A stretch of 39,744 nt of DNA from Pseudomonadota bacterium. GTDB lineage: Bacteria > Myxococcota_A > UBA9042 > CAIXZC01. Below the pieces are notes generated by a model. It was not told the DNA's origin. It saw nothing but the letters and a program-made list of their open reading frames with translations, and searched no databases. The number at the start of each line of letters is the position of its first letter. Within the stretch, counting starts at the first letter, position 1. The stretch covers positions 1-39,744 of the forward strand of contig JBDRIT010000013.1 in assembly GCA_043815665.1 (NCBI GenBank), in the 5' to 3' direction. Positions 2,144-30,348 of the stretch are shown piece by piece. The position numbers and the translations under genes were made by a program.

Positions 2144-4053
2144 GGTGTCCCCCGCTGGGCGCGGAGCCCGTCGAGGCGGTCCAGGAGATCCCTGAGGCGC
2201 ATCACGGCCGCGGCGCGGTCTGCGTCCTGGGCTGCGGAGGGCGCGAAGCGGGCGTAGTCGCAGCTCTCCAGCTCCTCCCGGAGCGCCTGAATCAGCGTCG
2301 CGTCCGCGCCCAGTTCCCGGAGCGCGGACACGAGCCCGTCGCCGCCGCGGGCGGCGGGGGCCAGGTCGAAGCGATCACCGAGGTAGTCGCCCACCACGCG
2401 GGCCAGGGTCCCGTAGAATGCGGCGGTGTCCTCCCCGGGGTGGCGCAGCAGCTCTGCGAGGGCCTGTCGCGCCCTGCCCAGGGCCCGACGCCGTCCCTTC
2501 CCCTTCACGGGTCGGCGCCGGCGGAGGAGGCGTCCGGTCCAGGGCAGGAGGGCCGCGGCCCCAAGGATCCCCAGGGCCACCAGGAATCCGATGGGCACCG
2601 GGAGGGTCGCCGGGCGCGGCGGCGACGGCGCGAGGTCCGGGCCGGTGACCGGCCGCACCTGCTCGTTCACGTCCACGGCCGCAATGGGCGCCTCTGCTGC
2701 CGTGGGGCGGGTCAGGGTCACCGCGCCCAGGGGCGCGTCCACGCTCCTGTACTGGCCGGAGTCGGGGTCCAGGGTCACCAGGCGCAGGGCGCCGAGGTCC
2801 AGGGTCCCCGTGCGGTCCACCCGGAAGGGCACCTGCACCGAGATCTCGCCCCGGATCCCCTCCCGATCCGTAACCACCCCGCTCCGATCCACCGAGGGCT
2901 CCCGCACGGTCACCCCGGGGGGGGACGGGGGAGGCGGCGGCACGAGGCCGTAGAGGTTGCCCTCCCCGGAGATCCGGTACTTGACGAAGCCCCACGTCCC
3001 TGCCTGGAGCTCCAGGGGGATCTCAACGTCCTGGATCTCGAAGCGCCCCACGTTGCCGTCCCGGAACCCGTCGGCCCGGGGGGTCGGCACAGGCCGCACC
3101 TGGAGGGCCACCGTGGGCCCCTTGACCTCGTTCTGGTTCATCCCGGAGGAGAAGCTGATGGAGAAGCCGCCCCCGCCCCGGTGGACGGTGGTGCGGTTCA
3201 CGGAGACCACCGCGGTGGGCGGGGCCAGGGACCGCGCCCCGGTCTCCAGGGGGATCAGGAGGGAGCGTCCGAGGTTGTAGACCGTGTAGCGGCGGCCCCC
3301 GATGGTCTCCTTGCCGTCCTCCCGAACCTCCTGATCCAGGGGCTCCTGGCGGAAGCCCTCGGGTTCGGGGACCGAGACCTCCTGGACCCCCCCCACGGTC
3401 TGGTGATCCACGTAGAGCAGGTGATCCACCAGGAAGGGCTCGCTCACGTACGGGGTCCCCCGGGAGGGGCGGGTGAGGGTGAACGCGTCGTACTTCGACA
3501 GGGACGACAGGTCCCCGAGGGAGGCCGCGTCCAGGGAGAGGTCCGCGGAGGGGAAGACGGTCTCCTTCGACCCCTGCGGCTCCGTGGGTTGGAGCTCGCG
3601 TCGGGTTTGTCGGGGGCGGACGCGGCCCCGGGACGCACGCTTCGCCTTGTCGCCCTTCCCCGGCTTGACGGTGATCGTCTGGGGGGCCGAGGTCAGGAGG
3701 CTCTCCCGCGCCCGGAAGAAGCCGTCCCCCAGGAGGGAGGCCGTGGGGGTCTCGAGGCGCCCCGTCTTCTTTGGGGTCAGCCGGAACGCGAAGCGGCAGG
3801 GTGCGGACTTCACCTCGTAGCCGATGTTCATGCAGAACATGGGCTGGCGCACCCGCAGGGCCTCCACGTCGAAGAGCTCCGACGTCGGGGGCACCAGCTC
3901 CACGTGATCCGCGTTCACCGTGATCACGAGATCCACCCACTCGTTCTCGAAGATCTCCTCGTCGTCCACCTGGACGTCCAGCGCCCCCGCGCGCACCGCG
4001 GGCGCTGCGAGGACGAGGAACAACAGGGTGTGCACGAGTTGTCGCATTGCCAT
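2140..4053 (-). CDS. BatD-like oxygen-tolerance protein (secreted, C-terminal TM anchor plus cytoplasmic tail)
   Basis: 637 aa with a signal peptide (MAMRQLVHTLLFLVLAAPAVRA), a large extracytoplasmic domain, and a single C-terminal TM (IGFLVALGILGAAALLPW) followed by a basic stretch. Size and position between BatB/C and BatE are typical of BatD. Confidence 0.5.
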   Translation of the reverse strand: MAMRQLVHTLLFLVLAAPAVRAGALDVQVDDEEIFENEWVDLVITVNADHVELVPPTSELFDVEALRVRQPMFCMNIGYEVKSAPCRFAFRLTPKKTGRLETPTASLLGDGFFRARESLLTSAPQTITVKPGKGDKAKRASRGRVRPRQTRRELQPTEPQGSKETVFPSADLSLDAASLGDLSSLSKYDAFTLTRPSRGTPYVSEPFLVDHLLYVDHQTVGGVQEVSVPEPEGFRQEPLDQEVREDGKETIGGRRYTVYNLGRSLLIPLETGARSLAPPTAVVSVNRTTVHRGGGGFSISFSSGMNQNEVKGPTVALQVRPVPTPRADGFRDGNVGRFEIQDVEIPLELQAGTWGFVKYRISGEGNLYGLVPPPPPSPPGVTVREPSVDRSGVVTDREGIRGEISVQVPFRVDRTGTLDLGALRLVTLDPDSGQYRSVDAPLGAVTLTRPTAAEAPIAAVDVNEQVRPVTGPDLAPSPPRPATLPVPIGFLVALGILGAAALLPWTGRLLRRRRPVKGKGRRRALGRARQALAELLRHPGEDTAAFYGTLARVVGDYLGDRFDLAPAARGGDGLVSALRELGADATLIQALREELESCDYARFAPSAAQDADRAAAVMRLRDLLDRLDGLRAQRGTP

Positions 4054-4118: not shown

Positions 4119-7076
4119 TTACCAAGCCTTCCCTCCCGGGATCCGGACGTTGGGCATCCCCTCGAGGGCCTTCTCTGCCTCCAGGTTCCGCCGCTTCTTT
4201 TGATCGAGCTGGTCCATCTGCTGATCGATGGCCTGTTGTTGCTCCTCCTGCTGTTGCTGCTGCTCCTTCTCGTCGTCGCCGCCACCGCCGCCGCCGCCCT
4301 GGGGCTCCTGGATCTGGAGCGTGTAGAAGTTCGTCCCGTCGGGCGTCGCACCGGAGATCCGGAGCAGCCAGGTCCCCGGCGCGTCCTCCCCGGCCTCGAG
4401 GACCACGCCCTCCCCGGGCGTCTCGTCGCTGCTCTCGTCGCTGTGCTCCACCGGGTTTGCGGTGTCCTCGGGGTCGTAGGCTTCGAGGAGCAGATCTCCG
4501 TCCCCGTGGACGAAGACCGCCTGCACCTGGGCTTTCTCGCCAGCGGGCAGCTCCAGGCGGAACCAGTCGTCGTCCCCCCCGCAGCGGCGCAGCTCCAGGG
4601 GTTGCCCCCCCTTCTGCACGGGCTTGGCCGCGTCCGGGGTGTCGTCGTCCTCGTTCTTGTCGTCCCCCTCGGGGCAGGGGGGCACCCCCCGGACGGTGAG
4701 CTGCCCCGCCGCCTCGGCGCCGGCCAGTCGGATGTAGTAGATCCCCTCCTGGAGCTCCTGCGCGGACGCCGCGAAGCGGCTCGCAGGCGCGGCGGCGGCC
4801 CCCGGTGCGGCGGGTTGTCCTTCGCCCAGGTCCCCTCCCGTGGCCACCACCCGACCGGCCTCGTCCTGGATCTCGAGGGTCAGGGCCCCGTCCAGCACCT
4901 CTCCTTCGAAGGTCGTGAAGAGGGTCCAGCCCGCCTGGACGCCCGTCCGGAACCAGTCCTCGTCCCCGGGGCAGAGGCGCAGGGTCAGGGGCGCGCCGTC
5001 CTCGGGGAGGTCCTTCGCCGCAGACAGGGTGTCGTTGTCCTCCTGCCCGTCCTCCAGGGACGCACAGGTGGGGAGGGTCTCCAGGCCCAGCCGGTAGCCG
5101 TGCTCCTCATCGTCCGGCGCACGCACCCGCAGGGTCCAGGTGGCCTCGCTGTCGGAGAGGTTCTCCGTCAGGAGGACTCCGTCGCTGTCCGCGAAGAGGG
5201 TCGCGGAGTCCGCCAGGCCGGAGGCCCCTTCCATGAGCTCGAGGGTCACGCCGACGGCGGGTTGACCCCGGGGTGGGAGGGGCGGGGTTGCGGCGGCCTC
5301 GTCGGGGGCCGCCCCAGGCGGCGCCTCCGGGGCGGCGGGAGCCGCGGCGCCGGGTCGTGCGAGCCACGCGCGGAGCCTGTGCCCCGCCGGCACCGTCACC
5401 CCGTAGTGGTCCACGTCCTCGGGACAGAGGAGCAGGTCCACGCCCCCGATCTCGGGCTCCCAGGCCGTGGGCCGGACGGGGGAGTTGTTGGGTTCGTACG
5501 TCTCCTGCCGCCGGGAGCAGGGCGGATGGAGGTGGAGGAGGGCCAGCTCCAGGTTCTCCGAGGCCCCGTCGACGCCGGGGTCCTTCCGGATCGCGGCGCG
5601 CAGGGATCCCACGGCCTGCTCCAGGGCGGCCTTCCGCTCCGCATCCTCTTCCTTCGAGAGGGCCAGCCGCAGGTACGCGAGGCCCTGGTTTGCCAGGATC
5701 GCCGCCTCCAGCTCCGGCCCGGTTTTTTCAGCGGCTCGCTTGAATGCGTCCAGCGCCGCGTCGTAGTCCCCGGCCGCGAGGTGCGCGGTTCCCAGGTCGT
5801 AGTGCAGCTCCGCCCGCTCCGGGATCTTCTCGCGGAGGGCCTCCAGGGAGGCGGCGGCCTCCGCGTACTCCTCCCCCGCGTACCGCTCGTTGGCTTCGTC
5901 CACCGCGGAGTTCGTGGTCTCGAACATGCCGCAGGAGGGCACGGCGAGGAGGGCCAGGAGCACCGCGAAGGTCCCCCGCCGCCGCCACCCGGCCAGCGCG
6001 AGGCTCAGCGCGAGGAGCGCCAACCCCGGCGCCAGGAGGAGCTGGAAACGGTCCTTCCGGAGCTTCTCCAGGGTCGCCTCGACCTCCTGCTTCTCCAGGC
6101 GGTCCAGCTCCTCGAAGATTGCGGCAGCGATGGGCTGGCCGGTGTAGTGGAAGTACCGGCCGCCGGTGATCTCCGCCACCTGCTTCAGCAGGTCCTCGTT
6201 GAGCCGGGACACCACCGGGTCTCCGGTCTCCTCGTCGGTGAGGCGGCCGCCGGTGGGTTCGCCGGTCTCCCCGTCCAGCTCCGGCACGAGATCCCCTGCG
6301 TGGGGATCTCCGACGCCGATGGTGTACACCCGGATCCCCAGGTCCTTGGCTCTGCGGGCCACCGTCAGGGGCTCCGAGCCGTGGTCCTCGCCGTCGCTGA
6401 CCAGCACGATCACCTTGTACTTGCTCCCCGCGTAGGGGTGGAGGATCTCCGTCGTGTTCTCCTTCGCCCCCGTCTTCGCCTTCGCGCTGTCCTTCTCCGC
6501 GCGTCCCGCGCCCAGGAGCTCGAGGGAGACGGCGAGCGCGCGGCCGACCGCGGTGCCGGGAACGGGCAGGTCCGCGGGGTTCATGTCCCGCAGGTAGCTG
6601 CGGATTGCGCCGAAGTCCGAGGTCATGGGGCTCTGCTTGTACGCGATCCCCGCGAAGGGAACCAGCCCCACCCGGCCGCCGTTGAGGCGGGTGAGGAGCT
6701 CCTCGAGCTCCAGCACCGACGCGTGGAGCCGGTCGGGCTCCACGTCCCGGGTGAGCATGCTCGCGCTCATGTCCAGTGCGACGACCACGTCGAGGCCCTT
6801 GCGGGTCCACTCGGACTCCTCCATGCCGTACTGGGGTCGGAGCGCGGCCAGGCCGAAGAGGGCCATTGCCACGAGGAAGAGCACCGCGGAGACCGCCCTG
6901 GCCGCGGGGGACGTGTCCTCGGTGAGGAGCCCCCGCAGGGGCCCGTCGGCCAGGCGCCGGGCCATCCGGGCTCGCCAGAGGGCAAGCCCCAACCGGGCCG
7001 CTATCAGGACCGCGAGGCCCAGGGCCACGGCCCACCACCAGGCACCATTGTGGAAGAAGAGGCCGCCCTCGATCAT
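4119..7076 (-). CDS. BatB/BatC-like fusion: TM-VWA-TM followed by TPR, three PPC (pre-peptidase C-terminal-like) domains and an acidic Gln-rich tail
   Basis: 985 aa. The VWA domain carries the MIDAS motif DVVVALDMSASM, flanked by TM segments as in BatB. TPR helices follow (HYDLGTAHLAAGDYDAALDAFKRA). Three repeats then show EPNN/NDT...LxLCPxDxDWFR signatures (PPC-like). The tail is GGGGGGGDDEKEQQQQQEEQQQ. The start overlaps the batA stop (ATGA at 7073-7076). Confidence 0.6.
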   Translation of the reverse strand: MIEGGLFFHNGAWWWAVALGLAVLIAARLGLALWRARMARRLADGPLRGLLTEDTSPAARAVSAVLFLVAMALFGLAALRPQYGMEESEWTRKGLDVVVALDMSASMLTRDVEPDRLHASVLELEELLTRLNGGRVGLVPFAGIAYKQSPMTSDFGAIRSYLRDMNPADLPVPGTAVGRALAVSLELLGAGRAEKDSAKAKTGAKENTTEILHPYAGSKYKVIVLVSDGEDHGSEPLTVARRAKDLGIRVYTIGVGDPHAGDLVPELDGETGEPTGGRLTDEETGDPVVSRLNEDLLKQVAEITGGRYFHYTGQPIAAAIFEELDRLEKQEVEATLEKLRKDRFQLLLAPGLALLALSLALAGWRRRGTFAVLLALLAVPSCGMFETTNSAVDEANERYAGEEYAEAAASLEALREKIPERAELHYDLGTAHLAAGDYDAALDAFKRAAEKTGPELEAAILANQGLAYLRLALSKEEDAERKAALEQAVGSLRAAIRKDPGVDGASENLELALLHLHPPCSRRQETYEPNNSPVRPTAWEPEIGGVDLLLCPEDVDHYGVTVPAGHRLRAWLARPGAAAPAAPEAPPGAAPDEAAATPPLPPRGQPAVGVTLELMEGASGLADSATLFADSDGVLLTENLSDSEATWTLRVRAPDDEEHGYRLGLETLPTCASLEDGQEDNDTLSAAKDLPEDGAPLTLRLCPGDEDWFRTGVQAGWTLFTTFEGEVLDGALTLEIQDEAGRVVATGGDLGEGQPAAPGAAAAPASRFAASAQELQEGIYYIRLAGAEAAGQLTVRGVPPCPEGDDKNEDDDTPDAAKPVQKGGQPLELRRCGGDDDWFRLELPAGEKAQVQAVFVHGDGDLLLEAYDPEDTANPVEHSDESSDETPGEGVVLEAGEDAPGTWLLRISGATPDGTNFYTLQIQEPQGGGGGGGDDEKEQQQQQEEQQQAIDQQMDQLDQKKRRNLEAEKALEGMPNVRIPGGKAW

Positions 7077-8164
7077 GGGAACCTCCTGAGGACCGTGGTC
7101 TGCAGCAGGAGCCCGAGGGACAGGAGGGCCAGGCCCGCCAGGAGGAAGGGGAGGAACTCCTCCTTCTGGAAGGCGACCCGCTCCTCGAGGCGCTCGGAGC
7201 GCTCCAGGTCCTCGAACTGCTTTCGAAAGGAGGCCTCGTCGTAGGAGACCTGGAAGGTCCCCCGGGCCGCCTCCACCAGGGATCGGATCTGCGCCTCGTC
7301 CACGTGGCCGGGGTCGTCCGCGTAGAGCAGCCGCCCGAACTGGTCATGGAGGTAGCGTCCGTTGGGGCCCACCGCCGGGGTCTTGGTGTCCGTGCCGCTG
7401 CCGATGAGGAACGCGTAGAGCCGGGGGCGCTCGTCGTCGGACAGCGCCCCGAGGCGTTTTGCGACGTCCATGGGCTTGAGCTTGCTGGCGTTGTCGTTGC
7501 CGTCGGTGATCAGGATGATGACCTTGCCCGCGCCCTCCCCGTCCTCCAGGCGCTTCCACCCCCGGGAGAGCGCGTCGCCGATCGCGGTGCGCGCCCCCTC
7601 GATGGTGCAGCGGTTGAGGCAGCTGGAATCGCCCCGTCCCCGATCCCGCTCGCCGGAGTCGAGCTCCAGCCCCTCGAGCTGGTCGAGGGCGGTCCGATAG
7701 TCCAGCGTCAACGGAAATTTCAAGAATGCGTCCTGTGAAAAGATCACCAGGCCGATGCGGTCGCCCTGGCGCTTGCTGATGAAGTCCCGGAGCGCGGCGC
7801 GGGCCACCTCGAAGCGGTTGGAGGGCTCCGAGCCCTCGGCCTGGAGCGCGGACAGGGCCGCGTCGGGCAGGTCCACCGCGTTCATGGAGCCGGACATGTC
7901 CAGGCAGATCATGATGTCCAGCCCCTCGCCGGTGAGCTCCTCCCAGTCCTCGGTCTGGGGCCGGGCCAGGGCCACGACGACGAGCGCGAAGCCCAGGACG
8001 AAGGCGAGGGTCGGGAGGCCCGCGAGGCGGACCTTGGGGCCCGCGCCGGCCGCGTCCAGGGCTGGCTGGTTCGCGAAGCGCCACCCGGGGCGTCCCCGGC
8101 GGAGCCAGAGGACCAGGGGCAGCGCGAGGAGCGCGAGGAAGGCCCACGGCGTCGCGAAGCTCAT
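7073..8164 (-). CDS. BatA-like VWA-domain membrane protein
   Basis: 363 aa with an N-terminal TM, a VWA MIDAS motif DIMICLDMSGSM, and a C-terminal TM (FLPFLLAGLALLSLGLLL). It has 4 nt overlaps with both neighbours. Confidence 0.7.
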   Translation of the reverse strand: MSFATPWAFLALLALPLVLWLRRGRPGWRFANQPALDAAGAGPKVRLAGLPTLAFVLGFALVVVALARPQTEDWEELTGEGLDIMICLDMSGSMNAVDLPDAALSALQAEGSEPSNRFEVARAALRDFISKRQGDRIGLVIFSQDAFLKFPLTLDYRTALDQLEGLELDSGERDRGRGDSSCLNRCTIEGARTAIGDALSRGWKRLEDGEGAGKVIILITDGNDNASKLKPMDVAKRLGALSDDERPRLYAFLIGSGTDTKTPAVGPNGRYLHDQFGRLLYADDPGHVDEAQIRSLVEAARGTFQVSYDEASFRKQFEDLERSERLEERVAFQKEEFLPFLLAGLALLSLGLLLQTTVLRRFP

Positions 8165-9111
8165 GACGCGCCCTCCGTCTTCTGGGCCAGGGTCTTCTCC
8201 ACCAGGCGCTCCACCTGCCGCAGCGCGCTCCGGGCGGAGTCCGGCGTGGGCTCCAGCTTGGCGAACTTCACCAGGTCGAAGTCACCCAGCAGGACCACCA
8301 CCTCCTCCAGGATCATCCCCTCCATGCGCACCCGCTTGAGCCGCTGGGTCAGCTCCGTGGTGGTGAGGTCCATGGAGTCGAAGCCGAAGCGGCCCCCCAG
8401 GTACTCCCGGAGGGTCTCCGAGAGCTCGGTGTAGTAGGCGGCGAAGGCGCCCTTCTCCAGGAGGTCCGACGCGGCCAGTCGCATCAGCCGTGCCCGTGCC
8501 CGCTCGTGGGGGGGGATCGGCGGCGGCGGCGGGGGCCGGCGGTGGAGGCGGCGCCAGCGGATCACCGCGAGGGTCGTGGCGGTGGCCGTCACGGCCACCC
8601 CGAGGATGATCAGGGCCCAAACCAGCACCCAGTGGGTCTCGGCCAGGGGCACCGGCGGCACCGGCGCCGCGGGGGGCGGGTCCACCTCCGTGGGGAAGTG
8701 TGTCCCGGTGTGGAACCGTACCTTGGGCACGGCGACGCCGACCTCGCCCCCCGCCGGCAGCTCGAAGCGCAGGCGCTGGGCGGGGATCCGGATCCAGCCG
8801 ACCCCCGCGACCCGCATGGGCACGGTGAGATCGTAGCGGACGTGGTCTCCCGCCAGGACCTCGCGCTGCAAGGAGATCTGATCGCGGAGCAGCAGGAGAT
8901 CCTCGGGGACGTCCAGGCCCTCGGGGGGCTTCATGCGGACCCCCGCGGGGACGTCTACCCGCACATGCCACTCCACGTCGTCCCCCACGGTGGGGTCCTC
9001 GGGCATGTCCACCCAGACCGCGGGCTTGAGGTCGCTGCCCGTCGCGGGCTCCTGGGCCAGCGCGGGCAGCGCGGCGAGGAGCAGGAGCGTGGCCAGGAGG
9101 TGTTTCATCAA
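8161..9111 (-). CDS. Membrane protein of the MoxR/Bat operon (signal peptide, extracytoplasmic domain, TM, Pro-rich linker, DUF4381-like cytoplasmic tail)
   Basis: 316 aa with a signal peptide (MMKHLLATLLLLAALPALA), a TM (WVLVWALIILGVAVTATATTLAVI), then PPPPPPIPP and a C-terminal helical domain. Its position between DUF58 and BatA matches the slot usually taken by a DUF4381 protein. Confidence 0.45.
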   Translation of the reverse strand: MMKHLLATLLLLAALPALAQEPATGSDLKPAVWVDMPEDPTVGDDVEWHVRVDVPAGVRMKPPEGLDVPEDLLLLRDQISLQREVLAGDHVRYDLTVPMRVAGVGWIRIPAQRLRFELPAGGEVGVAVPKVRFHTGTHFPTEVDPPPAAPVPPVPLAETHWVLVWALIILGVAVTATATTLAVIRWRRLHRRPPPPPPIPPHERARARLMRLAASDLLEKGAFAAYYTELSETLREYLGGRFGFDSMDLTTTELTQRLKRVRMEGMILEEVVVLLGDFDLVKFAKLEPTPDSARSALRQVERLVEKTLAQKTEGAS

Positions 9112-10022
9112 GACCTCCTCGCCCGCCGCCGGAACAGGCGCAGCATGGGGCCCATGTAGTCCTGGTCCGTGCGGATGGTCTCGAAGTCCAGGCCCTGGGC
9201 CCGGAAGAGATCGGTGAGGCGCTGATCCGCCTGGGCCGCGGCCGCGCTGTACCGCTTCCGGACACCCTTGCTGGAAAAATCCACCAGGCGCAGCGCGCCG
9301 GTCTCAGGGTCGGCCACGGTGACGAGGCCCGCGGGGGGCAGCGCGAGGTCCGCAGGGTCCCGCGCGACCAGGGGCACCAGATCATGGCGCTGCTTCGCGA
9401 TGGCCAGGGATCTCCGGAGCCCCTCGAACTCCGCCGGCGACTTGATGAAGAAATCGGAGAGCAGGAACGCGACGGAGGTCTTCTTCGTCACACCCACCAA
9501 CGTCCGGAGCGCCTCCGAGACGCCCCCGGGGGCCGCCCCGGGCCGCGCCGGCTCGAAGCGCAGGATGTCCATGATCACCCGCATGACGTGCAGGCGTCCC
9601 TTCCGGGGAGGCACGATGTGCTCGACCTTGTCCGTGAAGATGATCAGGCCCACCCGGTCGTTGTTCTTGATCGCGCTGAACGCGAGGAGCGCGCCCACCT
9701 CGGCCTGGAGCTCCTGCCGGGTCATGCCCCGGGTGCCGAAGCAAGCGGATCGGGACGCGTCCACCAGGAGGAAGACGGTGAGCTCGCGCTCCTCCACGAA
9801 GAGCTTCACGTGGAGGTCGCCGGTGCGGGCGGAGACGTTCCAGTCGACCTGGCGGATGTCGTCCCCCGCCTGGTAGGGCCGCACCTCTTCGAAGCTCATA
9901 CCGCGGCCCTTGAACACCGATCGGTACTGCCCCGCCATCTGGTCCGTGGCCAGCCGCGACGTGGCGATCTCGATGTGGCGCAGCTTCTTGCGAAGCGCGA
10001 CGTGGTTCCGATCGTTCTTCAT
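9108..10022 (-). CDS. DUF58 family protein (VWA-like, MoxR partner)
   Basis: 304 aa. The motif QVDWNVSARTGDLHVKLF ... LLVDASRS is characteristic of DUF58. It sits directly downstream of moxR, with a 4 nt overlap to the next gene. Confidence 0.7.
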   Translation of the reverse strand: MKNDRNHVALRKKLRHIEIATSRLATDQMAGQYRSVFKGRGMSFEEVRPYQAGDDIRQVDWNVSARTGDLHVKLFVEERELTVFLLVDASRSACFGTRGMTRQELQAEVGALLAFSAIKNNDRVGLIIFTDKVEHIVPPRKGRLHVMRVIMDILRFEPARPGAAPGGVSEALRTLVGVTKKTSVAFLLSDFFIKSPAEFEGLRRSLAIAKQRHDLVPLVARDPADLALPPAGLVTVADPETGALRLVDFSSKGVRKRYSAAAAQADQRLTDLFRAQGLDFETIRTDQDYMGPMLRLFRRRARRS

Positions 10023-10034
10023 GGCTCGGCTCCG

Positions 10035-11024
10035 CTACGGGACCTCGACCTCGTCGAGGATCTGGCGGATGACGCTCTCGGGGGCCAGCTCCTCGGCCTC
10101 GGCCTCGTAGGTCAGCACCACCCGGTGACGCAGGACCTCCATGGCGACCTCCTTCACGTCCTCGGGGATCACGTAGCCCCGGTGCCGCAGGAAGGCCTGG
10201 GCCCTGGACGCGTTCAAGAGGAAGAGGGACGCGCGGGGGGACGCGCCGAAGGAGATGAAGTCCTTCAGCCGCGCGAGGCCGTGGGCCGCTGGCTCCCGGG
10301 TCGCGAAGACGATGTCCAGGATGTAGCTCTTGATCTTGTCGTCCACGTAGACCTGGTGGAGCACCTCCCGCGCCTTCAGGATCTCCTCGGGCTTGATCAC
10401 CGGGCGGGCCGAGGGGATCACGAGGGCCGTCATGCGCTCCATGATCAGCCGCTCCTCGTCCCGATCCGGGTAGCCCACCACGATCTTGAGCATGAACCGG
10501 TCCACCTGGGCCTCGGGCAGGGGGTAGGTCCCCTCCTGTTCGATGGGGTTCTGGGTGGCCAGGACCAGGAAGAGCGGGTCCAGCTTGTAGGTGGCGTCCC
10601 CGATGGTGACCTGCTTCTCCTGCATGGCCTCGAGGAGCGCGCTCTGGACCTTGGCCGGCGCCCGGTTGATCTCGTCAGCGAGGACGATGTTCGAGAAGAT
10701 CGGGCCCTTGTGCGGGGTGAACTCGCCGGTCTTCTGGCTGTAGACCATGGTCCCCAGGATGTCCGCGGGGAGGAGGTCCGGCGTGAACTGGATCCGCTGG
10801 AACTTCGTCTCGATCACGTCCGCGAGGGTCTGCACGGTGAGGGTCTTGGCCAGACCCGGAACGCCCTCCAGGAGGATGTGTCCGCCGGTGAGCAGCCCGA
10901 TGAGCAGCCCCTCCAGCATCCGCTTCTGGCCCACCACCACCCGGCCCAGCTCCTCCAGGAGCGGGTCCACGAACGCGCTCTCTTTGCGCACGATGTCGTT
11001 GATGTACCGAATGTCGCCTTCCAT
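10035..11024 (-). CDS. moxR: MoxR-family AAA+ ATPase
   Basis: 329 aa with Walker A (GVPGLAKT) and Walker B (LADEINRAPAKVQSALLEAMQE). The C-terminal region is typical of MoxR. A GGAGGGAGG RBS precedes the ATG. Confidence 0.9.
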   Translation of the reverse strand: MEGDIRYINDIVRKESAFVDPLLEELGRVVVGQKRMLEGLLIGLLTGGHILLEGVPGLAKTLTVQTLADVIETKFQRIQFTPDLLPADILGTMVYSQKTGEFTPHKGPIFSNIVLADEINRAPAKVQSALLEAMQEKQVTIGDATYKLDPLFLVLATQNPIEQEGTYPLPEAQVDRFMLKIVVGYPDRDEERLIMERMTALVIPSARPVIKPEEILKAREVLHQVYVDDKIKSYILDIVFATREPAAHGLARLKDFISFGASPRASLFLLNASRAQAFLRHRGYVIPEDVKEVAMEVLRHRVVLTYEAEAEELAPESVIRQILDEVEVP

Positions 11025-11243
11025 GGGATCCTCCCTCCACCAGCAGTCAACGTCGCAATCAACGCCAAGGGTTCCGGATTATTCCTGAAACCGCTTGACT
11101 TGCAACCCCCTGCTCTGGAATGAATAGCCCCACGCGGATCGGACACCTCCGATCGCTGCGGGGTGGGTGGGAGCGATCGTCGTCCGGACATTGTTCGGGC
11201 CGTTGCTCACTGTCCGGCCCGGGCCCTGCGCAGGAGGTGTCAC

Positions 11244-12773
11244 ATGTCCCTCGTCATCACCGGAGAGAACCTCACCATCAACGACGTCGCGGCCGTCGCG
11301 CGGCGTCGCGAGTCCGTCTCCCTCCACCCCGACGCCGAGGCCCGCATCGTGAGGTGTCGGAGCTTCATCGAGGAGCGCATCGCGGCCGGGGAGATCATGT
11401 ACGGGGTGAACACGGGGATCGGCGAGTTCTCCGAGGTGGTCCTCACCGACGCGCAGACGGCCCAGTTCCAGAAGTGGCTGATCTACAACCACGCAGCGGG
11501 GATCGGTGAGCCCTGCCCCGAGGACTGGGTCCGGGGTGCGATGCTGGGCCGGATCAACGTCCACGCCCATGGGCACTCGGGCTGCCGCCCGGTGATCACC
11601 CGGACCCTGGTGGAGATGCTCAACAAGGGCGTCACCCCGGTGGTTTGTAAAAAAGGCTCCGTGGGCGCGTGCGGGGATCTTGCCCCCATGAGCCAGGTCG
11701 CGCTCGCGGTGATCGGCGAGCACGAGGTTTTTTACAAGGGCGAGCGCATGCCCGCCCGGCGGGGCCTCGAGGAGGCGGGCATCACCCCCGCCACCCTGCA
11801 GGCCCGGGACGGCCTCGCGATCATCAACGGGTCGAACCTCCTCACCGCGATCGGCGCGCTCTTCCTCTACGACGCGGAGCGGTGGCTCCAGCAGGCGGAG
11901 ATCGCCGCGGCCATGACCCTGGAGGCCCTCCTGGCCAACATGAAGCCCTACGACCCGCGGCTCCACCGGCTGCGGGGCTTCCCCGGCGCGGTGACCTCCG
12001 CGGAGAACCTCCAGAAGATCCTGGCCGGCTCGGATCTCGTCGAGGGCCGCCTGAAGACCCGGGTCCAGGACGCGTACTCCATGCGGTCCACGCCCCAGGT
12101 CATCGGCGCCGCGCGGGATCAGCTGCGCTGGGCCCGGGAGCAGGTGGAGATCGAGCTGAACGGGGTCGGGGACAACCCCCTGTTCCTGCCCGAGGACGAT
12201 GTGGTCCTGACGGGTGCAAACTTCCAGGGCACCCCGGTGAGCATGCCCGTGGACACCGCGGGGGCCGCGGTGACCATGATCTCGATCCTCTCGGAGCGGC
12301 GCCTGAACCGCCTCCTCAATCCGGCCCTCTCCGTGGGCCTGCCGCCCTTCCTGACCAAGGGCGCGGGGATGATGTCCGGCCACATGCTCTCTCAGTACAC
12401 CGCGGACATGATGATCGTGGAGCAGCGGATCCTCTCGGCGCCGGCCTTCATCCAGTCGATCCCTGCGGCTGCGGACCAGGAAGACTTCGTGTCCATGGGC
12501 ATGAACTCCTCCCTGAAGTCCATGCAGATCCTCGAGAACGCCTGGGGCGTCCTGGGCATCGAGTTCATCGCCGCCGCCCAGGCCCTGGACTTCCGGGACC
12601 ACGGCTTCGGCCGCGGCGTCGCCGCGGCCCGGGCCGCGGTCCGGGAGCACGTGCCCTTCCTCGATGACGACCGCCCCCTCTTCAACGATCACAACGCCAT
12701 GATGCAGGCCGTGAAGGACTTCGATGTCCTGACGGCTGTGGAATCGGAGATCGGTGAGCTGACGCTCTACTGA
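11244..12773 (+). CDS. MIO-dependent aromatic amino-acid ammonia-lyase family protein (HAL/PAL/TAL-like) with an Ala-Cys-Gly MIO tripeptide
   Basis: The ORF 11163-12773 is trimmed to the internal ATG at 11244, which is preceded by an AGGAGG RBS at 11233-11238; this gives 509 aa. Family signatures are YGVNTGIGEF, NHAAGIG, KGSVGACGDLAPMS (the canonical form is GSVGASGDLAP), NGVGDNPLF and AADQEDFVSMG. Confidence 0.85.
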   Translation: MSLVITGENLTINDVAAVARRRESVSLHPDAEARIVRCRSFIEERIAAGEIMYGVNTGIGEFSEVVLTDAQTAQFQKWLIYNHAAGIGEPCPEDWVRGAMLGRINVHAHGHSGCRPVITRTLVEMLNKGVTPVVCKKGSVGACGDLAPMSQVALAVIGEHEVFYKGERMPARRGLEEAGITPATLQARDGLAIINGSNLLTAIGALFLYDAERWLQQAEIAAAMTLEALLANMKPYDPRLHRLRGFPGAVTSAENLQKILAGSDLVEGRLKTRVQDAYSMRSTPQVIGAARDQLRWAREQVEIELNGVGDNPLFLPEDDVVLTGANFQGTPVSMPVDTAGAAVTMISILSERRLNRLLNPALSVGLPPFLTKGAGMMSGHMLSQYTADMMIVEQRILSAPAFIQSIPAAADQEDFVSMGMNSSLKSMQILENAWGVLGIEFIAAAQALDFRDHGFGRGVAAARAAVREHVPFLDDDRPLFNDHNAMMQAVKDFDVLTAVESEIGELTLY

Positions 12774-12779
12774 CAGCCC

Positions 12780-14358
12780 TCAGACCAGCGCGTTCAGCCC
12801 GTCCACGAAGGTCTCCTCGGACACGTCCTCCAGGATCTCCACCTTGCCGGGGCGGATGGGGGATCACGAGGCGGATCCGCTCGCCGACGCGCTTCTTGTC
12901 CAGACGGACCCGGTCCATGAAGGCGTCCGGCGCCGGCGCGGGGTAGGTGGTGGGCAGGCCCAGGTGGGTGAGGGCCGCGCGGATCCGGCCCTCCAGGCCG
13001 GGCTCGGTGTGGCCCAGGGCCTGGCCGATGCGGGCCGCGGCGAGGAGGCCCAGGCCAACGGCCTGTCCGTGGGTGAGCGCCGGATCCAGGGCTTCCAGCG
13101 CATGGGCCGTGGTGTGGCCCAGGTTGAGCACCTGGCGGAGCCCCAGCTCCCGGGGATCCTCGCTGACCACCCTGGCCTTGACCCGGGCACAGCGACGGAT
13201 CAGCTCCGCGGCGCCCTCTTCCCGCCATGTCCGCGTGGATTCCTCTGCGAGCTTGGTAAACAGTTCGTCGTCGCCGATCAGGGCGGTCTTGAGGGCCTCG
13301 GAGAACGCATCGGAGAAGGCCGACTCGGGGAGGGTGGCGAGGACGTCCGGGTCGGCCAGCACCCCCCGGGGGCTGTAGAAGGTCCCCGCCAGGTTCCGGG
13401 CACGGCGGTGGTCCACCGCGGTCTTCCCGCCGATGGCCGCATCGATCATGGCCAGCAGGGTCGTGGGGATGAGCACCGTGCGGAGGCCCCGCATGTAGAC
13501 CGAGGCGACGAAGCTCCCCAGGTCCAGGGTCGCGCCGCCGCCCACCACGAGGATCCCGTGGTCCCGGGCCGCACCCGCAGCAGCGAGGCCGTCCAGGAGC
13601 CGCCCCGCCCCCTCCCAGGATTTCTCATCCGGGGAGACGAGGTGGATCCGGGGGAGCTTGCCCGCGTTGGCCAGGGACGCGGTGAGGGCCGGCCCCATGT
13701 GTTGCCAGGGGGCGCGGTCCGCGATCACGTGGACCTTGTCCACCCCCTCGAGCCAGGCGGTGTACACCCCCGTGTCCACGAGGAGGCCTCGGCGGATCAC
13801 GATGGGGCAGGGCGGCGCGCCGGGGATCCGCACGGTCACCGGCTCCAGCCCCAGGAGCCGGGCCAGCGCGTCCGCCGCGCCGTCCGAGGTGAGTGTGCTG
13901 GTGTCCAGGCGCAGCGCGAAGCTCTCGTAGACCGGGGCGCGGGCGCTGAGGATCTGGCGGATCTTCGCCTCCCGATCCGGCGCCCCCTCCAGGAGCGGCC
14001 GGTCCTGACCGGTGAGACGGGTTGCGAGGATCTCCGGGGGGGCGTGGAGGCAGATCACGGTGCCCCCGCGGGCCGCGGCCTCCCGCGCCGGCTCCTTGAG
14101 CAACGCGCCGCCTCCCGTCGCGACCACGAGACCCCGGGGAACGGCGAGATCCTGGATCACCTCCGCCTCCAGGGCGCGGAACGCGGCCCATCCCTCCTCC
14201 CGGATCAGCGCCAGGGCCGTCCGGTGCGCGCGGCGCTCGATCTCGTCGTCGGTGTCCATGAAGCTCCGCCCCAGGAGGCGGGCCAAGGCCCGCCCGGCGG
14301 CGGACTTTCCGGTGCCCATCATGCCCGTGAGGATGATGTTCGGGAGGGGGGCGCTCAC
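12780..14358 (-). CDS. aroKB: Bifunctional shikimate kinase / 3-dehydroquinate synthase (AroK-AroB fusion); apparent frameshift at the G5 run 12858-12862
   Basis: N-terminus has a P-loop GMMGTGKS (shikimate kinase). The AroB domain follows (GGGATLDLGSFVASVY, NLGHTTAHALE, RLDKKRVGERIRLVIP). The annotated ORF, ending at 12682, finishes with low-complexity junk that overlaps the lyase gene. Shifting one base at the G5 run yields a canonical AroB C-terminus, ...IPIRPGKVEILEDVSEETFVDGLNALV, with its stop at 12780-12782. Confidence 0.75.
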
Positions 14359-29258: not shown

Positions 29259-30257
29259 ATGACCTCGCGCGGGGACCGGCCACCCGAGGGGGGCCACCGC
29301 CGGGACGAGCGCCGCCTCCACATCTGCATGGGCGAGGTCTGCAACAACAACTGCCTCTTCTGCATGGACAAGGGGGGTCGCCTCCGCCAGCGGCATCTCG
29401 AGCTCATCAACCCGGAGGAGACCCTCCGGTTCATGGAGGAGAACCGGGACCTGGGGGAGATCCTCTTCACCGCGGGGGAGCCCACCCTCCACGAGGACCT
29501 GGTCCGGTACATCGGGCACGCCAGGCGCCTGGGCTTCTACCGGATCGGGTTGATCACCAACGGCCGCCGCCTGGCCTACCACGCCTACGCGGAGGGCCTC
29601 CTGCGCGCGGGCCTCAACAGCGTGGTCCTCTCCATCCATGGCCACCAGGCGCGCCTCCACGACGGGCAGACCCGGACCCCCGGCAGCTTCGAGCAGACCG
29701 CGGCGGGCCTCCGCACCCTGTCGGATCTCAAGGCCGGGTGGGAGCTCCACCTCTCCACCTCCACCGTGGTGAACCGACGGAACGTCCCCCACCTCGACGG
29801 GATCCTCGCCTTCCTTCTGGCCTTCCCCCTGGACCAGATCGTGCTCAACGCGGTCCAGCCCCTCGGCCGCACCGCCGATCTCTTCAATCAGCTCGTCCCA
29901 CGGTACTCCGAGATCGTCGATGCCCTCTCCGTCGCGCTGGAGCATGTCCCGGAGGACCAGCGGGCCCGGATCCGTCTCCTGGACGTGCCCCCCTGCCTCC
30001 TGACCCGCCTCCCCGAGGAGACCCGGGGCTGGGTGGAGGAGCACCAGCACTTCGAGCGGCGGGGCGGTCTCCCTCGGGGCCTGGGGGACGCGGCGCTACG
30101 CAAGGGAACCCGCGGCGTGGTGCGCAAGAAGGACTTCGATGCGATCCAGCGCGCGTTCGGCCCGCCCTGCGAGGGCTGCCCCCTCCGGCCCCGCTGTGAC
30201 GGCGTCTGGCGGCGCTATGCGGAGGAGTACGGCTGGGACGAGTTCGGTGCCCCCTGA
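29259..30257 (+). CDS. Radical SAM enzyme, paralogue 1 of 4 (CNNNCLFC; C-terminal C...CxxCx5C)
   Basis: 332 aa. The motif VCNNNCLFCMDKGG lies near the N-terminus with TAGEPTL about 30 aa later. The C-terminus has PPCLL...PPCEGCPLRPRCDGVWRRYAEEYGWDEF. The ATG is 5 nt after the relA stop. Confidence 0.8.
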   Translation: MTSRGDRPPEGGHRRDERRLHICMGEVCNNNCLFCMDKGGRLRQRHLELINPEETLRFMEENRDLGEILFTAGEPTLHEDLVRYIGHARRLGFYRIGLITNGRRLAYHAYAEGLLRAGLNSVVLSIHGHQARLHDGQTRTPGSFEQTAAGLRTLSDLKAGWELHLSTSTVVNRRNVPHLDGILAFLLAFPLDQIVLNAVQPLGRTADLFNQLVPRYSEIVDALSVALEHVPEDQRARIRLLDVPPCLLTRLPEETRGWVEEHQHFERRGGLPRGLGDAALRKGTRGVVRKKDFDAIQRAFGPPCEGCPLRPRCDGVWRRYAEEYGWDEFGAP

Positions 30258-30348
30258 CGCCCTCCCCCCTGGCGTGGGGGCCCGGAAGTTGTTATTAAGC
30301 CACCAGGGGTTCCGATCTCGAGAGGATCCCGGAGGAGAGGGAGCGACC

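What the first reader, a model, noticed from the sequence alone, without database searches (positions are those of the whole stretch)
11244..12773. MIO-family ammonia-lyase with Ala-Cys-Gly instead of Ala-Ser-Gly, unusual selectivity residues, and an AT-only inverted repeat bracketing the MIO-loop codons
Seen: the catalytic loop reads GSVGACGDLAPMS (gcg tgc ggg at about 11668-11676). Established: HAL, PAL and TAL form the MIO electrophile from Ala-Ser-Gly. Cys at the middle position is known from mutagenesis (from memory, HAL S143C) to still give dehydroalanine-type chemistry, but it is not the canonical natural motif. The substrate-selectivity dipeptide preceding HAAGIG is N-H (LIYNHAAG). This differs from HAL (S-H), TAL (H-L) and PAL (F-L), so substrate specificity is unclear. 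An 8 nt inverted repeat, GTAAAAAA at 11647-11654 and TTTTTTAC at 11728-11735, flanks the MIO-encoding codons. It consists of A6 and T6 runs, which is very atypical in a roughly 70% GC gene. Inference: this could be an RNA structure, a recombination footprint or a slippage hotspot around the active site.
Basis: partly seen in the sequence, partly recalled or inferred. Interest (0 to 1): 0.6.

Follow-up and report, generated by a model that had tools for sequence, protein, structure and literature searches.

The report
Histidase-like enzyme with natural Ala-Cys-Gly
This gene encodes a histidine-ammonia-lyase-like enzyme from a large, very conserved and uncharacterised bacterial clade that normally carries cysteine where all studied relatives carry the serine that forms their built-in catalytic group; the A/T-rich inverted repeat around that site is real but not a conserved structure.

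Summary
Window 11244-12773 (+) encodes a 509-aa PF00221 protein whose loop reads GSVGACGDLAPMS. N82-H83 precedes AAGIG.

ACG is not peculiar to this gene. It is the ancestral and dominant state of a clade spanning at least ten phyla at about 70% identity (115/120 protein clusters, 83/92 loci). Ser replaced Cys at least 7 times independently, always by one nucleotide, and no other residue occurs. All HAL catalytic and imidazole-binding residues are kept.

Best reading: a HAL-type lyase whose MIO electrophile forms from Ala-Cys-Gly by loss of H2S, as in the P. putida S143C mutant (from memory). Histidine is the probable substrate but not certain. The clade scores below the HutH equivalog cut-off, has no hut gene neighbours, and sits in tandem with a true HutH in Cloacimonadota.

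The inverted repeat is really 10 nt and is non-random under a synonymous-codon null. However, it is shared by only one or two close lineages, shows no covariation, and is not in the minimum-energy fold.

I found no paper describing a natural ACG clade. Verdict: new variant of a known kind, moderate interest.

The parts
11244..12773 (+). Gene for a 509-aa MIO-family (PF00221) HAL-like lyase, member of the Ala-Cys-Gly clade
   Evidence: Translation. Pfam PF00221 E = 1.2e-166. NCBIfam NF006871 545 bits (cut-off 524) and TIGR01225 520 bits (cut-off 539). PDB sequence hits to HAL and TAM. AlphaFold2 model TM 0.87-0.91 to HAL structures.
11232..11237 (+). AGGAGG ribosome-binding site, 6 nt before the ATG
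   Evidence: Read directly from the sequence. Orthologues are also 508-509 aa from this start.
11667..11675 (+). Codons GCG TGC GGG = Ala142-Cys143-Gly144, the predicted MIO precursor tripeptide
   Evidence: Cys in 115/120 clusters and 83/92 loci. The Ser alternatives are always AGY. Cys is ancestral, with at least 7 independent changes to Ser.
11400..11402 (+). Tyr53 codon (catalytic base on the inner loop, YGVNTG)
   Evidence: Invariant in the clade and in 134/135 family representatives. Role as beta-proton acceptor from 10.1101/2025.08.13.670108.
11484..11492 (+). Tyr81-Asn82-His83: 'substrate switch' region, N-H instead of the S-H of HAL
   Evidence: N82 and H83 are invariant in the clade. 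Representatives have S at position 82 in 128/135. The Ser/His switch motif is described in PMC11432326.
11646..11648 (+). Cys135 codon (TGT), a clade-specific Cys replacing the Pro of canonical HAL
   Evidence: Cys in 119/120 clade members; Pro in 117/135 representatives. It is not coupled to Cys143: P0121 has R135 with C143, and P0222 has P135 with C143.
12480..12482 (+). Glu413 codon (DQEDF), equivalent to HAL Glu414, an imidazole-binding residue
   Evidence: Invariant in the clade. Role.
11645..11654 (+). Left arm of the 10-nt inverted repeat, TTGTAAAAAA (codons GTT TGT AAA AAA = V134 C135 K136 K137)
   Evidence: I6. The identical four codons occur in L093, and TGT AAA AAA occurs in L009. 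They are absent from L012, L013, L006, L095 and the rest of the clade.
11728..11737 (+). Right arm of the inverted repeat, TTTTTTACAA (codons GTT TTT TAC AAG = V162 F163 Y164 K165)
   Evidence: The T6 run is unique to the window; L093 has T7. Phe163 is TTT in 15/23 high-GC orthologues.

Best explanation
The gene encodes a histidine-ammonia-lyase-type MIO enzyme. It belongs to a widespread, slowly evolving and so far uncharacterised clade, found mostly in uncultured Myxococcota, Acidobacteriota, Cloacimonadota, Ignavibacteria, Elusimicrobiota and others.

In this clade the MIO electrophile is predicted to form from Ala142-Cys143-Gly144. The steps are:
1. The backbone cyclises: the Gly144 nitrogen attacks the Ala142 carbonyl, followed by dehydration.
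2. H2S, instead of H2O, is eliminated from residue 143. This gives the same 4-methylidene-imidazol-5-one as in canonical enzymes.
3. Catalysis then proceeds as in HAL. MIO engages the substrate amino group and Tyr53 removes the beta-proton.
4. Asn195, Gln275, Tyr278 and Arg281 hold the carboxylate. His83 and Glu413 hold an imidazole ring.

The most likely reaction is therefore L-histidine to trans-urocanate plus NH3.

What is shown: the sequence, the clade, the residue conservation and the Cys/Ser interchange. What is inferred: that MIO forms from Cys, and that the substrate is histidine.

The A/T-rich inverted repeat is a lineage-restricted patch of rare codons laid over conserved residues (V-C-K-K and V-F-Y-K). 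It is not a conserved nucleic-acid structure.

Sub-confidences: clade membership about 0.99; Cys as MIO precursor about 0.8; histidine as substrate about 0.6. The overall confidence given is for the whole statement, histidine included.
For: Family and fold
- PF00221 covers the full length.
- The closest solved structures are HALs (7tqr, 1b8f, 6v6h) and SgTAM, by sequence and by fold.
- The alignment to P. putida HAL runs query 12-482 to chain 12-484, so Cys143 sits at the position of Ser143.

The clade
- ACG occurs in 115/120 of the nearest 90%-identity clusters and in 83/92 loci.
- The clade spans many phyla at 69-76% identity.
- 196 of 509 positions are at least 99% invariant.

Cys and Ser are interchangeable at position 143
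- Only Cys or Ser occurs there.
- Every Ser codon is AGC or AGT, one step from TGC or TGT.
- Parsimony gives Cys as ancestral, with at least 7 independent changes to Ser.
- This is the pattern expected if both residues are precursors of the same dehydroalanine-type group, and not if the thiol itself is needed.

Catalytic and maturation residues
- D145 and F327 are invariant. Their HAL equivalents are the D145A and F329A/G mutants in the PDB.
- Y53, H83, N195, Q275, Y278, R281 and E413 are invariant.

Other support
- ACG also occurs in an otherwise canonical HutH, P0222 (650 bits on TIGR01225).
- From memory: Langer, Lieber and Retey 1994 (Biochemistry 33:14034) showed that HAL S143C matures into fully active enzyme.

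Inverted repeat: searches give no support for a structure. Searches show it is restricted to a few lineages.
Against: - No member of the clade has been assayed.
- The clade scores 502-520 bits on the HutH equivalog model TIGR01225, below the 539 cut-off.
- No urocanase or imidazolonepropionase gene lies nearby in the window or in about 90 related loci. Neighbours differ between phyla and include MoxR-DUF58-VWA, aroKB/aroC, HtpG and RmuC.
- In at least 14 Cloacimonadota-type loci the clade gene lies directly upstream of a bona fide HutH (685 bits, ASG, S-H). That suggests a non-redundant role.
- Many second-shell positions differ from canonical HutH: S82N, P135C, L149M, H151Q, H246F, H328Q and H415F.
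- MIO formation from Cys in this scaffold rests on a mutant of another enzyme, recalled from memory.
Confidence: 0.58

Rival explanations
1. The MIO chemistry is the same, formed from Ala-Cys-Gly, but the job is different. The clade would act on another imidazole-type or aryl amino acid, or would work as a 2,3-aminomutase rather than as the catabolic histidase.
For: - The clade scores below the TIGR01225 equivalog cut-off.
- It forms a conserved tandem with a true HutH in Cloacimonadota.
- There is no hut gene context.
- The switch dipeptide is N-H instead of S-H, and there is a set of clade-specific second-shell changes, including four His residues of canonical HutH replaced.
- Sequence similarity to tyrosine aminomutase SgTAM (299.6 bits) equals that to P. 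putida HAL (296.5 bits).
- Conservation across phyla is unusually high.
Against: - H83 and E413, the imidazole N-tau/N-pi ligands of HAL, are invariant.
- TAL (H-L) and PAL (F-L) switch residues are absent.
- The HAL models are the best NCBIfam hits: 520-545 bits, against 386 for TAM, 351 for PAM, 328 for TAL and 238 for PAL.
- The nearest superclade relative, P0124 (an archaeal HAL with ASG), passes the HutH cut-off at 547 bits.
Confidence: 0.27
2. Cys143 is not eliminated. The loop stays uncyclised, or cyclised with the thiol retained, and the enzyme uses a thiol-based or MIO-independent mechanism, as ergothionase-type lyases do without MIO.
For: - MIO-less members of the superfamily exist: ergothionase 6s7j and histidine-betaine trimethylammonia-lyase.
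- A second clade-specific cysteine, Cys135, lies 8 residues upstream.
- Nobody has shown MIO in a natural ACG protein.
Against: - Ser replaces Cys143 at least 7 times independently with the rest of the protein unchanged.
- Cys135 and Cys143 are not coupled in relatives.
- The whole G-S-V-G-A-x-G-D-L context, D145 and F327 are invariant, whereas MIO-less enzymes lack the motif.
- The S143C precedent (from memory).
Confidence: 0.07
3. The A6/T6 inverted repeat is a functional element bracketing the MIO codons: an mRNA hairpin, a translational pause or slippery site, or a recombination site.
For: - It is non-random under synonymous-codon shuffling.
- GTT TGT AAA AAA is identical in L093, and TGT AAA AAA survives in L009 although that gene has GC3 of 0.98.
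- Seven consecutive informative sites at gene nt 402-438 group the window with L093 against L093's sister L013. They include the Cys/Ser codon.
- Phe163 is TTT in 15/23 high-GC orthologues, and codons about 151-172 are the only internal GC3 trough.
Against: - The arms are not paired in the minimum-energy or centroid fold, and the z-score is -1.05.
- There is no covariation: 64.7% paired, 64.2% in shuffles, 64.4% when slid by +2.
- There is no Rfam family and no terminator- or promoter-like site at either patch.
- The A6 patch is absent from sister lineages L012 and L013 and from more than 85 other orthologues.
- The complementarity follows largely from Lys AAA being the complement of Phe TTT, laid over conserved residues.
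- The stem would be 8 A-U pairs of 10, closing a 73-nt GC-rich loop.
- In the -1 frame, TAA (11648-11650) overlaps the start of the A run, and the heptamer is not of the X XXY YYZ type (read).
Confidence: 0.06

Closest known systems
Histidine ammonia-lyase HutH (EC 4.3.1.3; P. putida HAL 1b8f/1gkm, T. acidophilum 7tqr, T. cruzi 6v6h; NCBIfam TIGR01225 / NF006871)
   Same: - Same fold (TM 0.87-0.92), same length, and the same residue numbering over the N-terminal half.
- Y53, H83, N195, Q275/277, Y278/280, R281/283, F327/329 and E413/414 are all present.
- The G-S-V-G-A-x-G-D-L loop is the same.
- It passes the NF006871 subfamily cut-off.
   Different: - Cys instead of Ser at position 143, and N82 instead of S82.
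- C135 for Pro, M149 for Leu, and Q151, F246, Q328 and F415 for four conserved His residues.
- Below the TIGR01225 equivalog cut-off (520 against 539).
- No hut operon context.
- Co-occurs in tandem with a true HutH in Cloacimonadota.
P. putida HAL S143C mutant (Langer, Lieber and Retey 1994; recalled from memory, not retrievable in the held library)
   Same: It has Ala-Cys-Gly at exactly the same position. The mutant is reported to mature post-translationally into fully active enzyme, so Cys can serve as the dehydroalanine/MIO precursor.
   Different: That is an engineered single substitution in a canonical HutH. Here Cys is the natural, ancestral state of a whole clade with many other substitutions, and it is untested.
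Tyrosine 2,3-aminomutase SgTAM (2ohy/2rjr; TIGR03832)
   Same: Its sequence score to the query equals that of P. putida HAL (299.6 against 296.5 bits). The fold is the same (TM about 0.90). It has His at the position-83 equivalent (alignment).
   Different: TIGR03832 scores 386 bits against a cut-off of 501. The query lacks the SgTAM insertions visible in the alignment. The query keeps Glu413, where SgTAM has Tyr (from memory).
MIO-less relatives: ergothionase (6s7j) and histidine-betaine trimethylammonia-lyase
   Same: Same superfamily and fold. They also keep the His/Glu imidazole ligands.
   Different: They lack the X-Ser-Gly motif altogether and act on trimethylammonium substrates. The query keeps the full MIO loop with Cys/Ser interchange, and scores only 213 bits to 6s7j.

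Membership tests
MIO-dependent aromatic amino acid lyase/aminomutase superfamily (Pfam PF00221) | Full-length Lyase_aromatic domain and HAL-type fold | tested here: met
   PF00221 555 bits, covering profile positions 1-466 of 466. AlphaFold2 model (pLDDT 81.6, pTM 0.87) matches HAL, TAM, TAL and PAL structures with TM 0.85-0.92.
MIO-dependent aromatic amino acid lyase/aminomutase superfamily (Pfam PF00221) | [quoted passage not shown] | tested here: not met
   The tripeptide is Ala-Cys-Gly. The literal motif fails. Functional equivalence of Cys is inferred from the Cys/Ser interchange and from the S143C precedent (memory).
MIO-dependent aromatic amino acid lyase/aminomutase superfamily (Pfam PF00221) | Residues needed for autocatalytic MIO formation and catalysis (Tyr53 base, Asp145, Phe329, Asn195, Arg283) | tested here: met
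   Y53, D145, F327, N195 and R281 are invariant in the clade.
MIO-dependent aromatic amino acid lyase/aminomutase superfamily (Pfam PF00221) | MIO chromophore actually present in the mature protein | not testable with these tools
   This needs UV difference spectroscopy, mass spectrometry or a crystal structure.
Histidine ammonia-lyase HutH (TIGR01225 equivalog) | Score at or above the curated equivalog cut-off (539.15 bits) | tested here: not met
   The window protein scores 520.1 bits, and other clade members 502-508 bits. For comparison, the tandem Cloacimonadota paralogue scores 685 bits.
Histidine ammonia-lyase HutH (TIGR01225 equivalog) | NF006871 'histidine ammonia-lyase' subfamily cut-off (524 bits) | tested here: met
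   545.2 bits. Other clade members score 528-538 bits.
Histidine ammonia-lyase HutH (TIGR01225 equivalog) | Ser-His substrate-switch dipeptide and Glu414 (imidazole binding) | tested here: inconclusive
   His83 and Glu413 are present and invariant. Ser82 is replaced by an invariant Asn.
Histidine ammonia-lyase HutH (TIGR01225 equivalog) | Genomic association with hutU/hutI (urocanase, imidazolonepropionase) | tested here: not met
   Neither gene occurs in the 39.7-kb window, in the annotated related loci, or among conserved neighbour clusters of about 85 loci. Whole genomes could not be searched.
Histidine ammonia-lyase HutH (TIGR01225 equivalog) | L-histidine to urocanate activity | not testable with these tools
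   An enzyme assay is required.
Tyrosine/phenylalanine ammonia-lyases (TAL, PAL) | His-Leu (TAL) or Phe-Leu (PAL) switch dipeptide; equivalog scores | tested here: not met
   The dipeptide is Asn-His. FlxA TAL scores 328 against a cut-off of 700, BagA 229 against 1000, and PAL TIGR01226 238 against 519.
MIO aminomutases (TIGR03832 Tyr 2,3-mutase; TIGR04475 Phe mutase) | Equivalog score above cut-off | tested here: not met
   386 against 501, and 351 against 800. Mutase versus lyase behaviour cannot be excluded from sequence alone.

The most novel reading that the evidence does not exclude
The Ala-Cys-Gly clade is not just a histidase with a different MIO precursor. It would be a functionally distinct, housekeeping-like MIO enzyme of many uncultured phyla, either using a new substrate (a histidine-related amine) or acting as an aminomutase.

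This reading would explain three things:
- about 70% identity across phyla;
- coexistence in tandem with a true HutH;
- a remodelled second shell (N82, C135, M149, Q151, F246, Q328, F415).

In the extreme version, the Cys matters mechanistically. It could give faster or anaerobic maturation through the better leaving group HS-, or it could persist as a thiol-bearing cofactor.
Probability: 0.2. Interest if true: 0.7.

Novelty: new variant of a known kind. Interest (0 to 1): 0.45.

Why it matters
The MIO literature treats the middle serine of the precursor tripeptide as invariant. [quoted passage not shown] Here, several hundred species across many mostly uncultured phyla use cysteine at that position by default and switch to serine repeatedly.

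If MIO is confirmed, this would be:
- the first natural case of MIO made by H2S elimination;
- a 30-year-late natural counterpart of the S143C mutant;
- a ready-made system for asking whether the leaving group affects maturation rate, oxygen sensitivity or folding.

There are also practical points.
- Motif-based filters that require Ser-Gly will miss or mislabel this clade. One example is the PROSITE PAL/histidase signature as I recall it. The HutH equivalog model likewise leaves the clade unnamed, so databases call it only 'aromatic amino acid lyase'.
- Histidine catabolism, or another activity, is therefore under-annotated in Cloacimonadota, Acidobacteriota, Ignavibacteria and related MAGs.
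- The tandem pairing with a true HutH makes substrate specificity a directly testable question.

Tried and rejected
1. RNA hairpin formed by the A6/T6 arms. Rejected: it is not in the minimum-energy fold, the z-score is -1.05, there is no covariation on 89 orthologues, and there is no Rfam hit.
2. Internal terminator or promoter at the AT patches. None was found.
3. Programmed -1 slippage at the A6 run. The heptamer is T AAA AAA rather than X XXY YYZ. In the -1 frame, TAA overlaps the start of the A run. The long open -1 frame downstream (the ORF at 11669-12667) is typical of high-GC DNA. There is no positive evidence.
4. Disulfide or metal pair between Cys135 and Cys143. Rejected because relatives carry one Cys without the other and Ser143 members keep Cys135.
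5. Function from gene neighbourhood. I clustered neighbours across about 85 loci and found only taxon-specific synteny: HtpG, RmuC, an ABC ATPase, TPR and Por-secretion proteins, and the Cloacimonadota HutH paralogue. MoxR-DUF58-VWA lies next to the gene both in the window's lineage and in an Eisenbacteria MAG, which is too little to build on.
6. ACG in a bona fide hut operon as proof of function. P0215 does sit beside hutU and hutI, but it has lost Q277 and Y280 and lies next to a canonical ASG lyase. It is probably a degenerate paralogue and not a clean test.
7. Literature. Nine searches found no paper describing a natural Ala-Cys-Gly MIO enzyme, the S143C paper, or histidine catabolism in Cloacimonas or Ignavibacterium.
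8. Sequencing error or pseudogene. Rejected: the frame is intact and the residue is conserved clade-wide.
Full report
**1. The observation**

The ORF from ATG 11244 to TGA 12773 on the + strand encodes 509 aa.
- An AGGAGG ribosome-binding site lies at 11232-11237.
- The catalytic loop reads GSVGACGDLAPMS.
- LIYNHAAGIG is present, with N82 and H83.
- GTAAAAAA (11647-11654) and TTTTTTAC (11728-11735) are there.
- The perfect inverted repeat is in fact 10 nt: TTGTAAAAAA at 11645-11654 and TTTTTTACAA at 11728-11737.
- The gene is 68% GC with GC3 of 0.94.

**2. What the protein is**

- It is a full-length PF00221 protein (E = 1.2e-166).
- The best NCBIfam hits are the two histidine ammonia-lyase models. 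NF006871 (subfamily) gives 545 bits, above its cut-off of 524. TIGR01225 (hutH equivalog) gives 520 bits, below its cut-off of 539.
- The aminomutase, TAL and PAL models all fall far below their cut-offs.
- By sequence, the nearest solved structures are T. acidophilum HAL 7tqr (319 bits), S. globisporus tyrosine aminomutase (300) and P. putida HAL (296).
- An AlphaFold2 model (pLDDT 81.6, pTM 0.87) superposes on these with TM 0.87-0.92.
- The alignment to P. putida HAL runs 12-482 against 12-484. Numbering therefore coincides in the N-terminal half, and the Cys is residue 143, the position of the MIO serine.

**3. ACG is the rule in a large clade**

- Among the 120 closest 90%-identity clusters in a 5.8-billion-protein database, 115 have ACG and 5 have ASG. 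118 have Y-N-H and 2 have F-N-H.
- A scan of one genome per GTDB species found 304 loci. The best 80 come from the following groups, at 69-76% amino-acid identity to the query:
  - Myxococcota
  - Acidobacteriota, including Aminicenantes, Thermoanaerobaculia and Holophagaceae
  - Cloacimonadota
  - Ignavibacteria, including Ignavibacterium album MAGs
  - Elusimicrobiota
  - KSB1
  - Planctomycetota
  - Latescibacterota, Chrysiogenales, Synergistia and others
- Over all 92 loci in hand, 83 are ACG and 9 are ASG. The Cys codons are TGC or TGT. Every Ser codon is AGC or AGT, never TCN, so each is one substitution away from Cys.
- I built a neighbour-joining tree of 89 non-redundant loci with the column masked and a canonical HutH as outgroup. 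Parsimony on it gives Cys as ancestral and at least 7 independent changes to Ser. No other residue ever occurs at this position.
- In a search of 1.84 billion cluster representatives, the clade collapses into a few 50%-identity clusters. Its nearest relatives are a mix of ACG (P0121, P0126, P0131) and ASG (P0122, and P0124, an archaeal HAL that passes TIGR01225 with 547 bits).
- ACG also appears sporadically elsewhere. P0222 is an otherwise textbook HutH (650 bits, S-H, QDPY, NFH, E414). P0215 and P0258 are further cases.

**4. Active site**

The following are invariant in the clade:
- Y53 (the base)
- H83 and E413 (imidazole ligands)
- N195, Q275, Y278 and R281 (carboxylate binding and positioning)
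- F327 and D145

Residue roles are taken from PMC11432326 and 10.1101/2025.08.13.670108. D145 and F329 are the residues whose mutants were crystallised in studies of HAL (PDB 1gk3, 1eb4, 1gk2, listed).

Clade-specific substitutions relative to about 130 family representatives:

| Position | Clade residue | Canonical residue |
|---|---|---|
| 82 | N | S |
| 135 | C | P |
| 143 | C | S |
| 149 | M | L |
| 151 | Q | H |
| 246 | F | H |
| 282 | S | C |
| 325 | A | G |
| 328 | Q | H |
| 415 | F | H |

Cys135 is not coupled to Cys143. Relatives carry either one alone, and Ser143 members keep Cys135.

**5. Mechanism**

The most economical reading is that Cys143 is simply an alternative precursor of the same MIO. 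The backbone cyclises, then beta-elimination removes H2S rather than H2O.

Four lines of evidence support this:
1. The position is restricted to Cys or Ser, the two residues that can give a dehydroalanine-type methylidene.
2. The two residues have been swapped repeatedly in an otherwise frozen protein.
3. The maturation residues are intact.
4. As far as I recall, P. putida HAL S143C matures into fully active enzyme (Langer, Lieber and Retey, Biochemistry 1994). I could not retrieve that paper in the held library.

With H83 and E413 kept and a MIO precursor present, the substrate should carry an imidazole and a free alpha-amino group. L-histidine is the obvious candidate.

**6. Reasons for caution about 'histidase'**

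- The clade falls below the HutH equivalog threshold.
- No urocanase or imidazolonepropionase gene lies in the window or beside the gene in related loci.
- Neighbours vary by lineage:
  - a divergent MoxR-DUF58-VWA operon and convergent aroK-aroB/aroC in the window's lineage
  - HtpG in Aminicenantes and Acidobacteriota
  - RmuC in Ignavibacteria
- In at least 14 Cloacimonadota-type loci the clade gene is followed directly by a second lyase. That second gene is a bona fide HutH (685 bits, ASG, I-L/I-S-H, QEDH).
- Conservation is unusually strong: about 70% identity across phyla, with 196 of 509 positions at least 99% invariant.
- A distinct substrate or a mutase activity therefore remains a live rival, at about 0.27.

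**7. The AT patches**

*Non-randomness.* The window has only 9 A6 or T6 runs, and two of them lie 74 nt apart in this gene. The left arm is four consecutive A/T-ending codons, GTT TGT AAA AAA, in a gene with GC3 of 0.94. Synonymous shuffling rarely reproduces this. An AT-rich inverted repeat arose in 0.4% of shuffles, a run of at least 4 A/T-ending codons in 0.7%, and two A6/T6 runs in 0 of 5000.

*Conservation is narrow and patchy.*
- The identical four codons plus GTT TTT T occur in L093 (P0004, 86.6% nt identity).
- TGT AAA AAA occurs in L009, despite a GC3 of 0.98.
- The sisters L013 (90.6% identical to L093) and L012 (94.4% identical to L009), as well as L006, L095 and all other orthologues, lack them.
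- Seven consecutive informative sites at gene nt 402-438 join the window with L093 against L013. They include the Cys to Ser codon of L013. This could be a small gene-conversion tract or parallel AT to GC changes. My rough estimate is p of about 0.02, post hoc.

*No evidence for a structure.*
- The arms do not pair in the minimum-energy or centroid structure, and the region is not unusually stable (z = -1.05).
- On 89 orthologues, 64.7% of cells pair, against 64.2% in shuffles and 64.4% with the partner slid by +2.
- There is no Rfam match in the window.
- There is no terminator- or promoter-like site at either patch.
- Much of the complementarity is built in. Lys AAA is the complement of Phe TTT, and TGT-A is the complement of T-ACA. 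Low-GC orthologues that encode the same residues therefore also show 8-9 of 10 'pairs'.

*One codon-level oddity is broader.* Phe163 is TTT in 15 of 23 high-GC orthologues, against 15% TTT overall. Codons about 151-172 form the only internal GC3 trough, after the 5' end. That segment is also the less conserved loop, so relaxed codon selection is a sufficient explanation.

**8. Novelty**

- No paper in the held library combines Ala-Cys-Gly or ACG with MIO.
- Source databases name the clade only 'aromatic amino acid (ammonia-)lyase' or, in JGI, 'histidine ammonia-lyase'.
- I therefore rate it a new variant of a known kind: an uncharacterised, widespread clade with a naturally Cys-derived (predicted) MIO.
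- It was anticipated by a 1994 mutant, so it is moderately rather than highly surprising.

**9. Verdict**

- Observation: confirmed.
- Interpretation: partly supported.
- The ACG feature is real, natural and clade-wide.
- The inverted repeat is a lineage-restricted rare-codon patch without structural support.
- Interest: 0.45.

Noticed in passing
window 12682-14358 (-), frameshift near 12858-12862: The convergent aroK-aroB fusion gene (shikimate kinase plus 3-dehydroquinate synthase) appears frameshifted at a G5 run. In the listed frame it runs 92 nt into the 3' end of the lyase gene and ends in Arg/Pro-rich junk. In another frame the C-terminus reads ...IRPGKVEILEDVSEETFVDGLNALV*, matching the 525-aa orthologues that stop just after the lyase gene. 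This is either an assembly indel or a real frameshift.
   Followed up: partly
L005 8001-9527 and 9547-11070 (also L018, L022, L024-L026, L028, L030, L034, L039, L040, L045, L063): In Cloacimonadota the ACG-clade gene is followed directly by a second lyase gene. That gene is a bona fide HutH (TIGR01225 685 bits, ASG, S-H, QEDH, about 40% identical). The tandem pair is conserved across the phylum. A division of labour or a heterotetramer is possible.
   Followed up: partly
window 11730-11732 (Phe163 TTT); codons about 151-172 in orthologues: Phe163 uses the rare TTT codon in 15 of 23 orthologues with GC3 of at least 0.8, against 15% TTT overall. It is the most A/T-ending position of all 509 codons. 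T6 and T7 runs recur here in Aminicenantes (L074, L075, L059). Codons about 151-172 are the only internal GC3 trough in high-GC orthologues.
   Followed up: partly
L013 gene nt 402-438 (locus 3353-3389) compared with L093 and the window: Seven consecutive informative sites group the window with L093 against L093's sister L013. They include the Cys143 to Ser codon change (TGC to AGC). This is a possible short gene-conversion tract that carried the ASG state together with GC-ending codons.
   Followed up: partly
window 4119-11024 (-); L003 3506-7764: A MoxR AAA+ ATPase, DUF58 and VWA/TPR (Bat-like) operon lies divergently upstream of the lyase gene in the window and its close relatives. It lies on the same strand directly upstream in an Eisenbacteria MAG. 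Adjacency in two distant lineages could be coincidence.
   Followed up: no
L099 1576-9536: A classic hut cluster (urocanase, two amidohydrolases, ABC transporter) contains two tandem lyases. One is a canonical ASG enzyme. The other is P0215, which has ACG but has lost Gln277 and Tyr280 (LRDALSIRC). It may be an inactive or repurposed paralogue, reminiscent of the hutH1/hutH2 pairs of Pseudomonas (from memory).
   Followed up: partly
window 11244-12773, residues 151, 246, 328, 415: Four histidines conserved in canonical HutH representatives are replaced throughout the clade (H151Q, H246F, H328Q, H415F). The resulting G-A-N-F-Q-G-T-P motif resembles the NFQGTP of PAL as I recall it. It may bear on metal stimulation or substrate positioning.
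   Followed up: no
window 29259-32972 (+): Three consecutive radical-SAM genes (332, 390 and 553 aa) lie downstream of a RelA/SpoT gene (27074-29254). They are unrelated to the finding.
   Followed up: no
window 11078-11105 (-): This is the only sigma-70-like promoter match in 11000-13000 (TTGCAA, 16-nt spacer, AATAAT). It lies in the intergenic region and points towards the divergent moxR gene.
   Followed up: no
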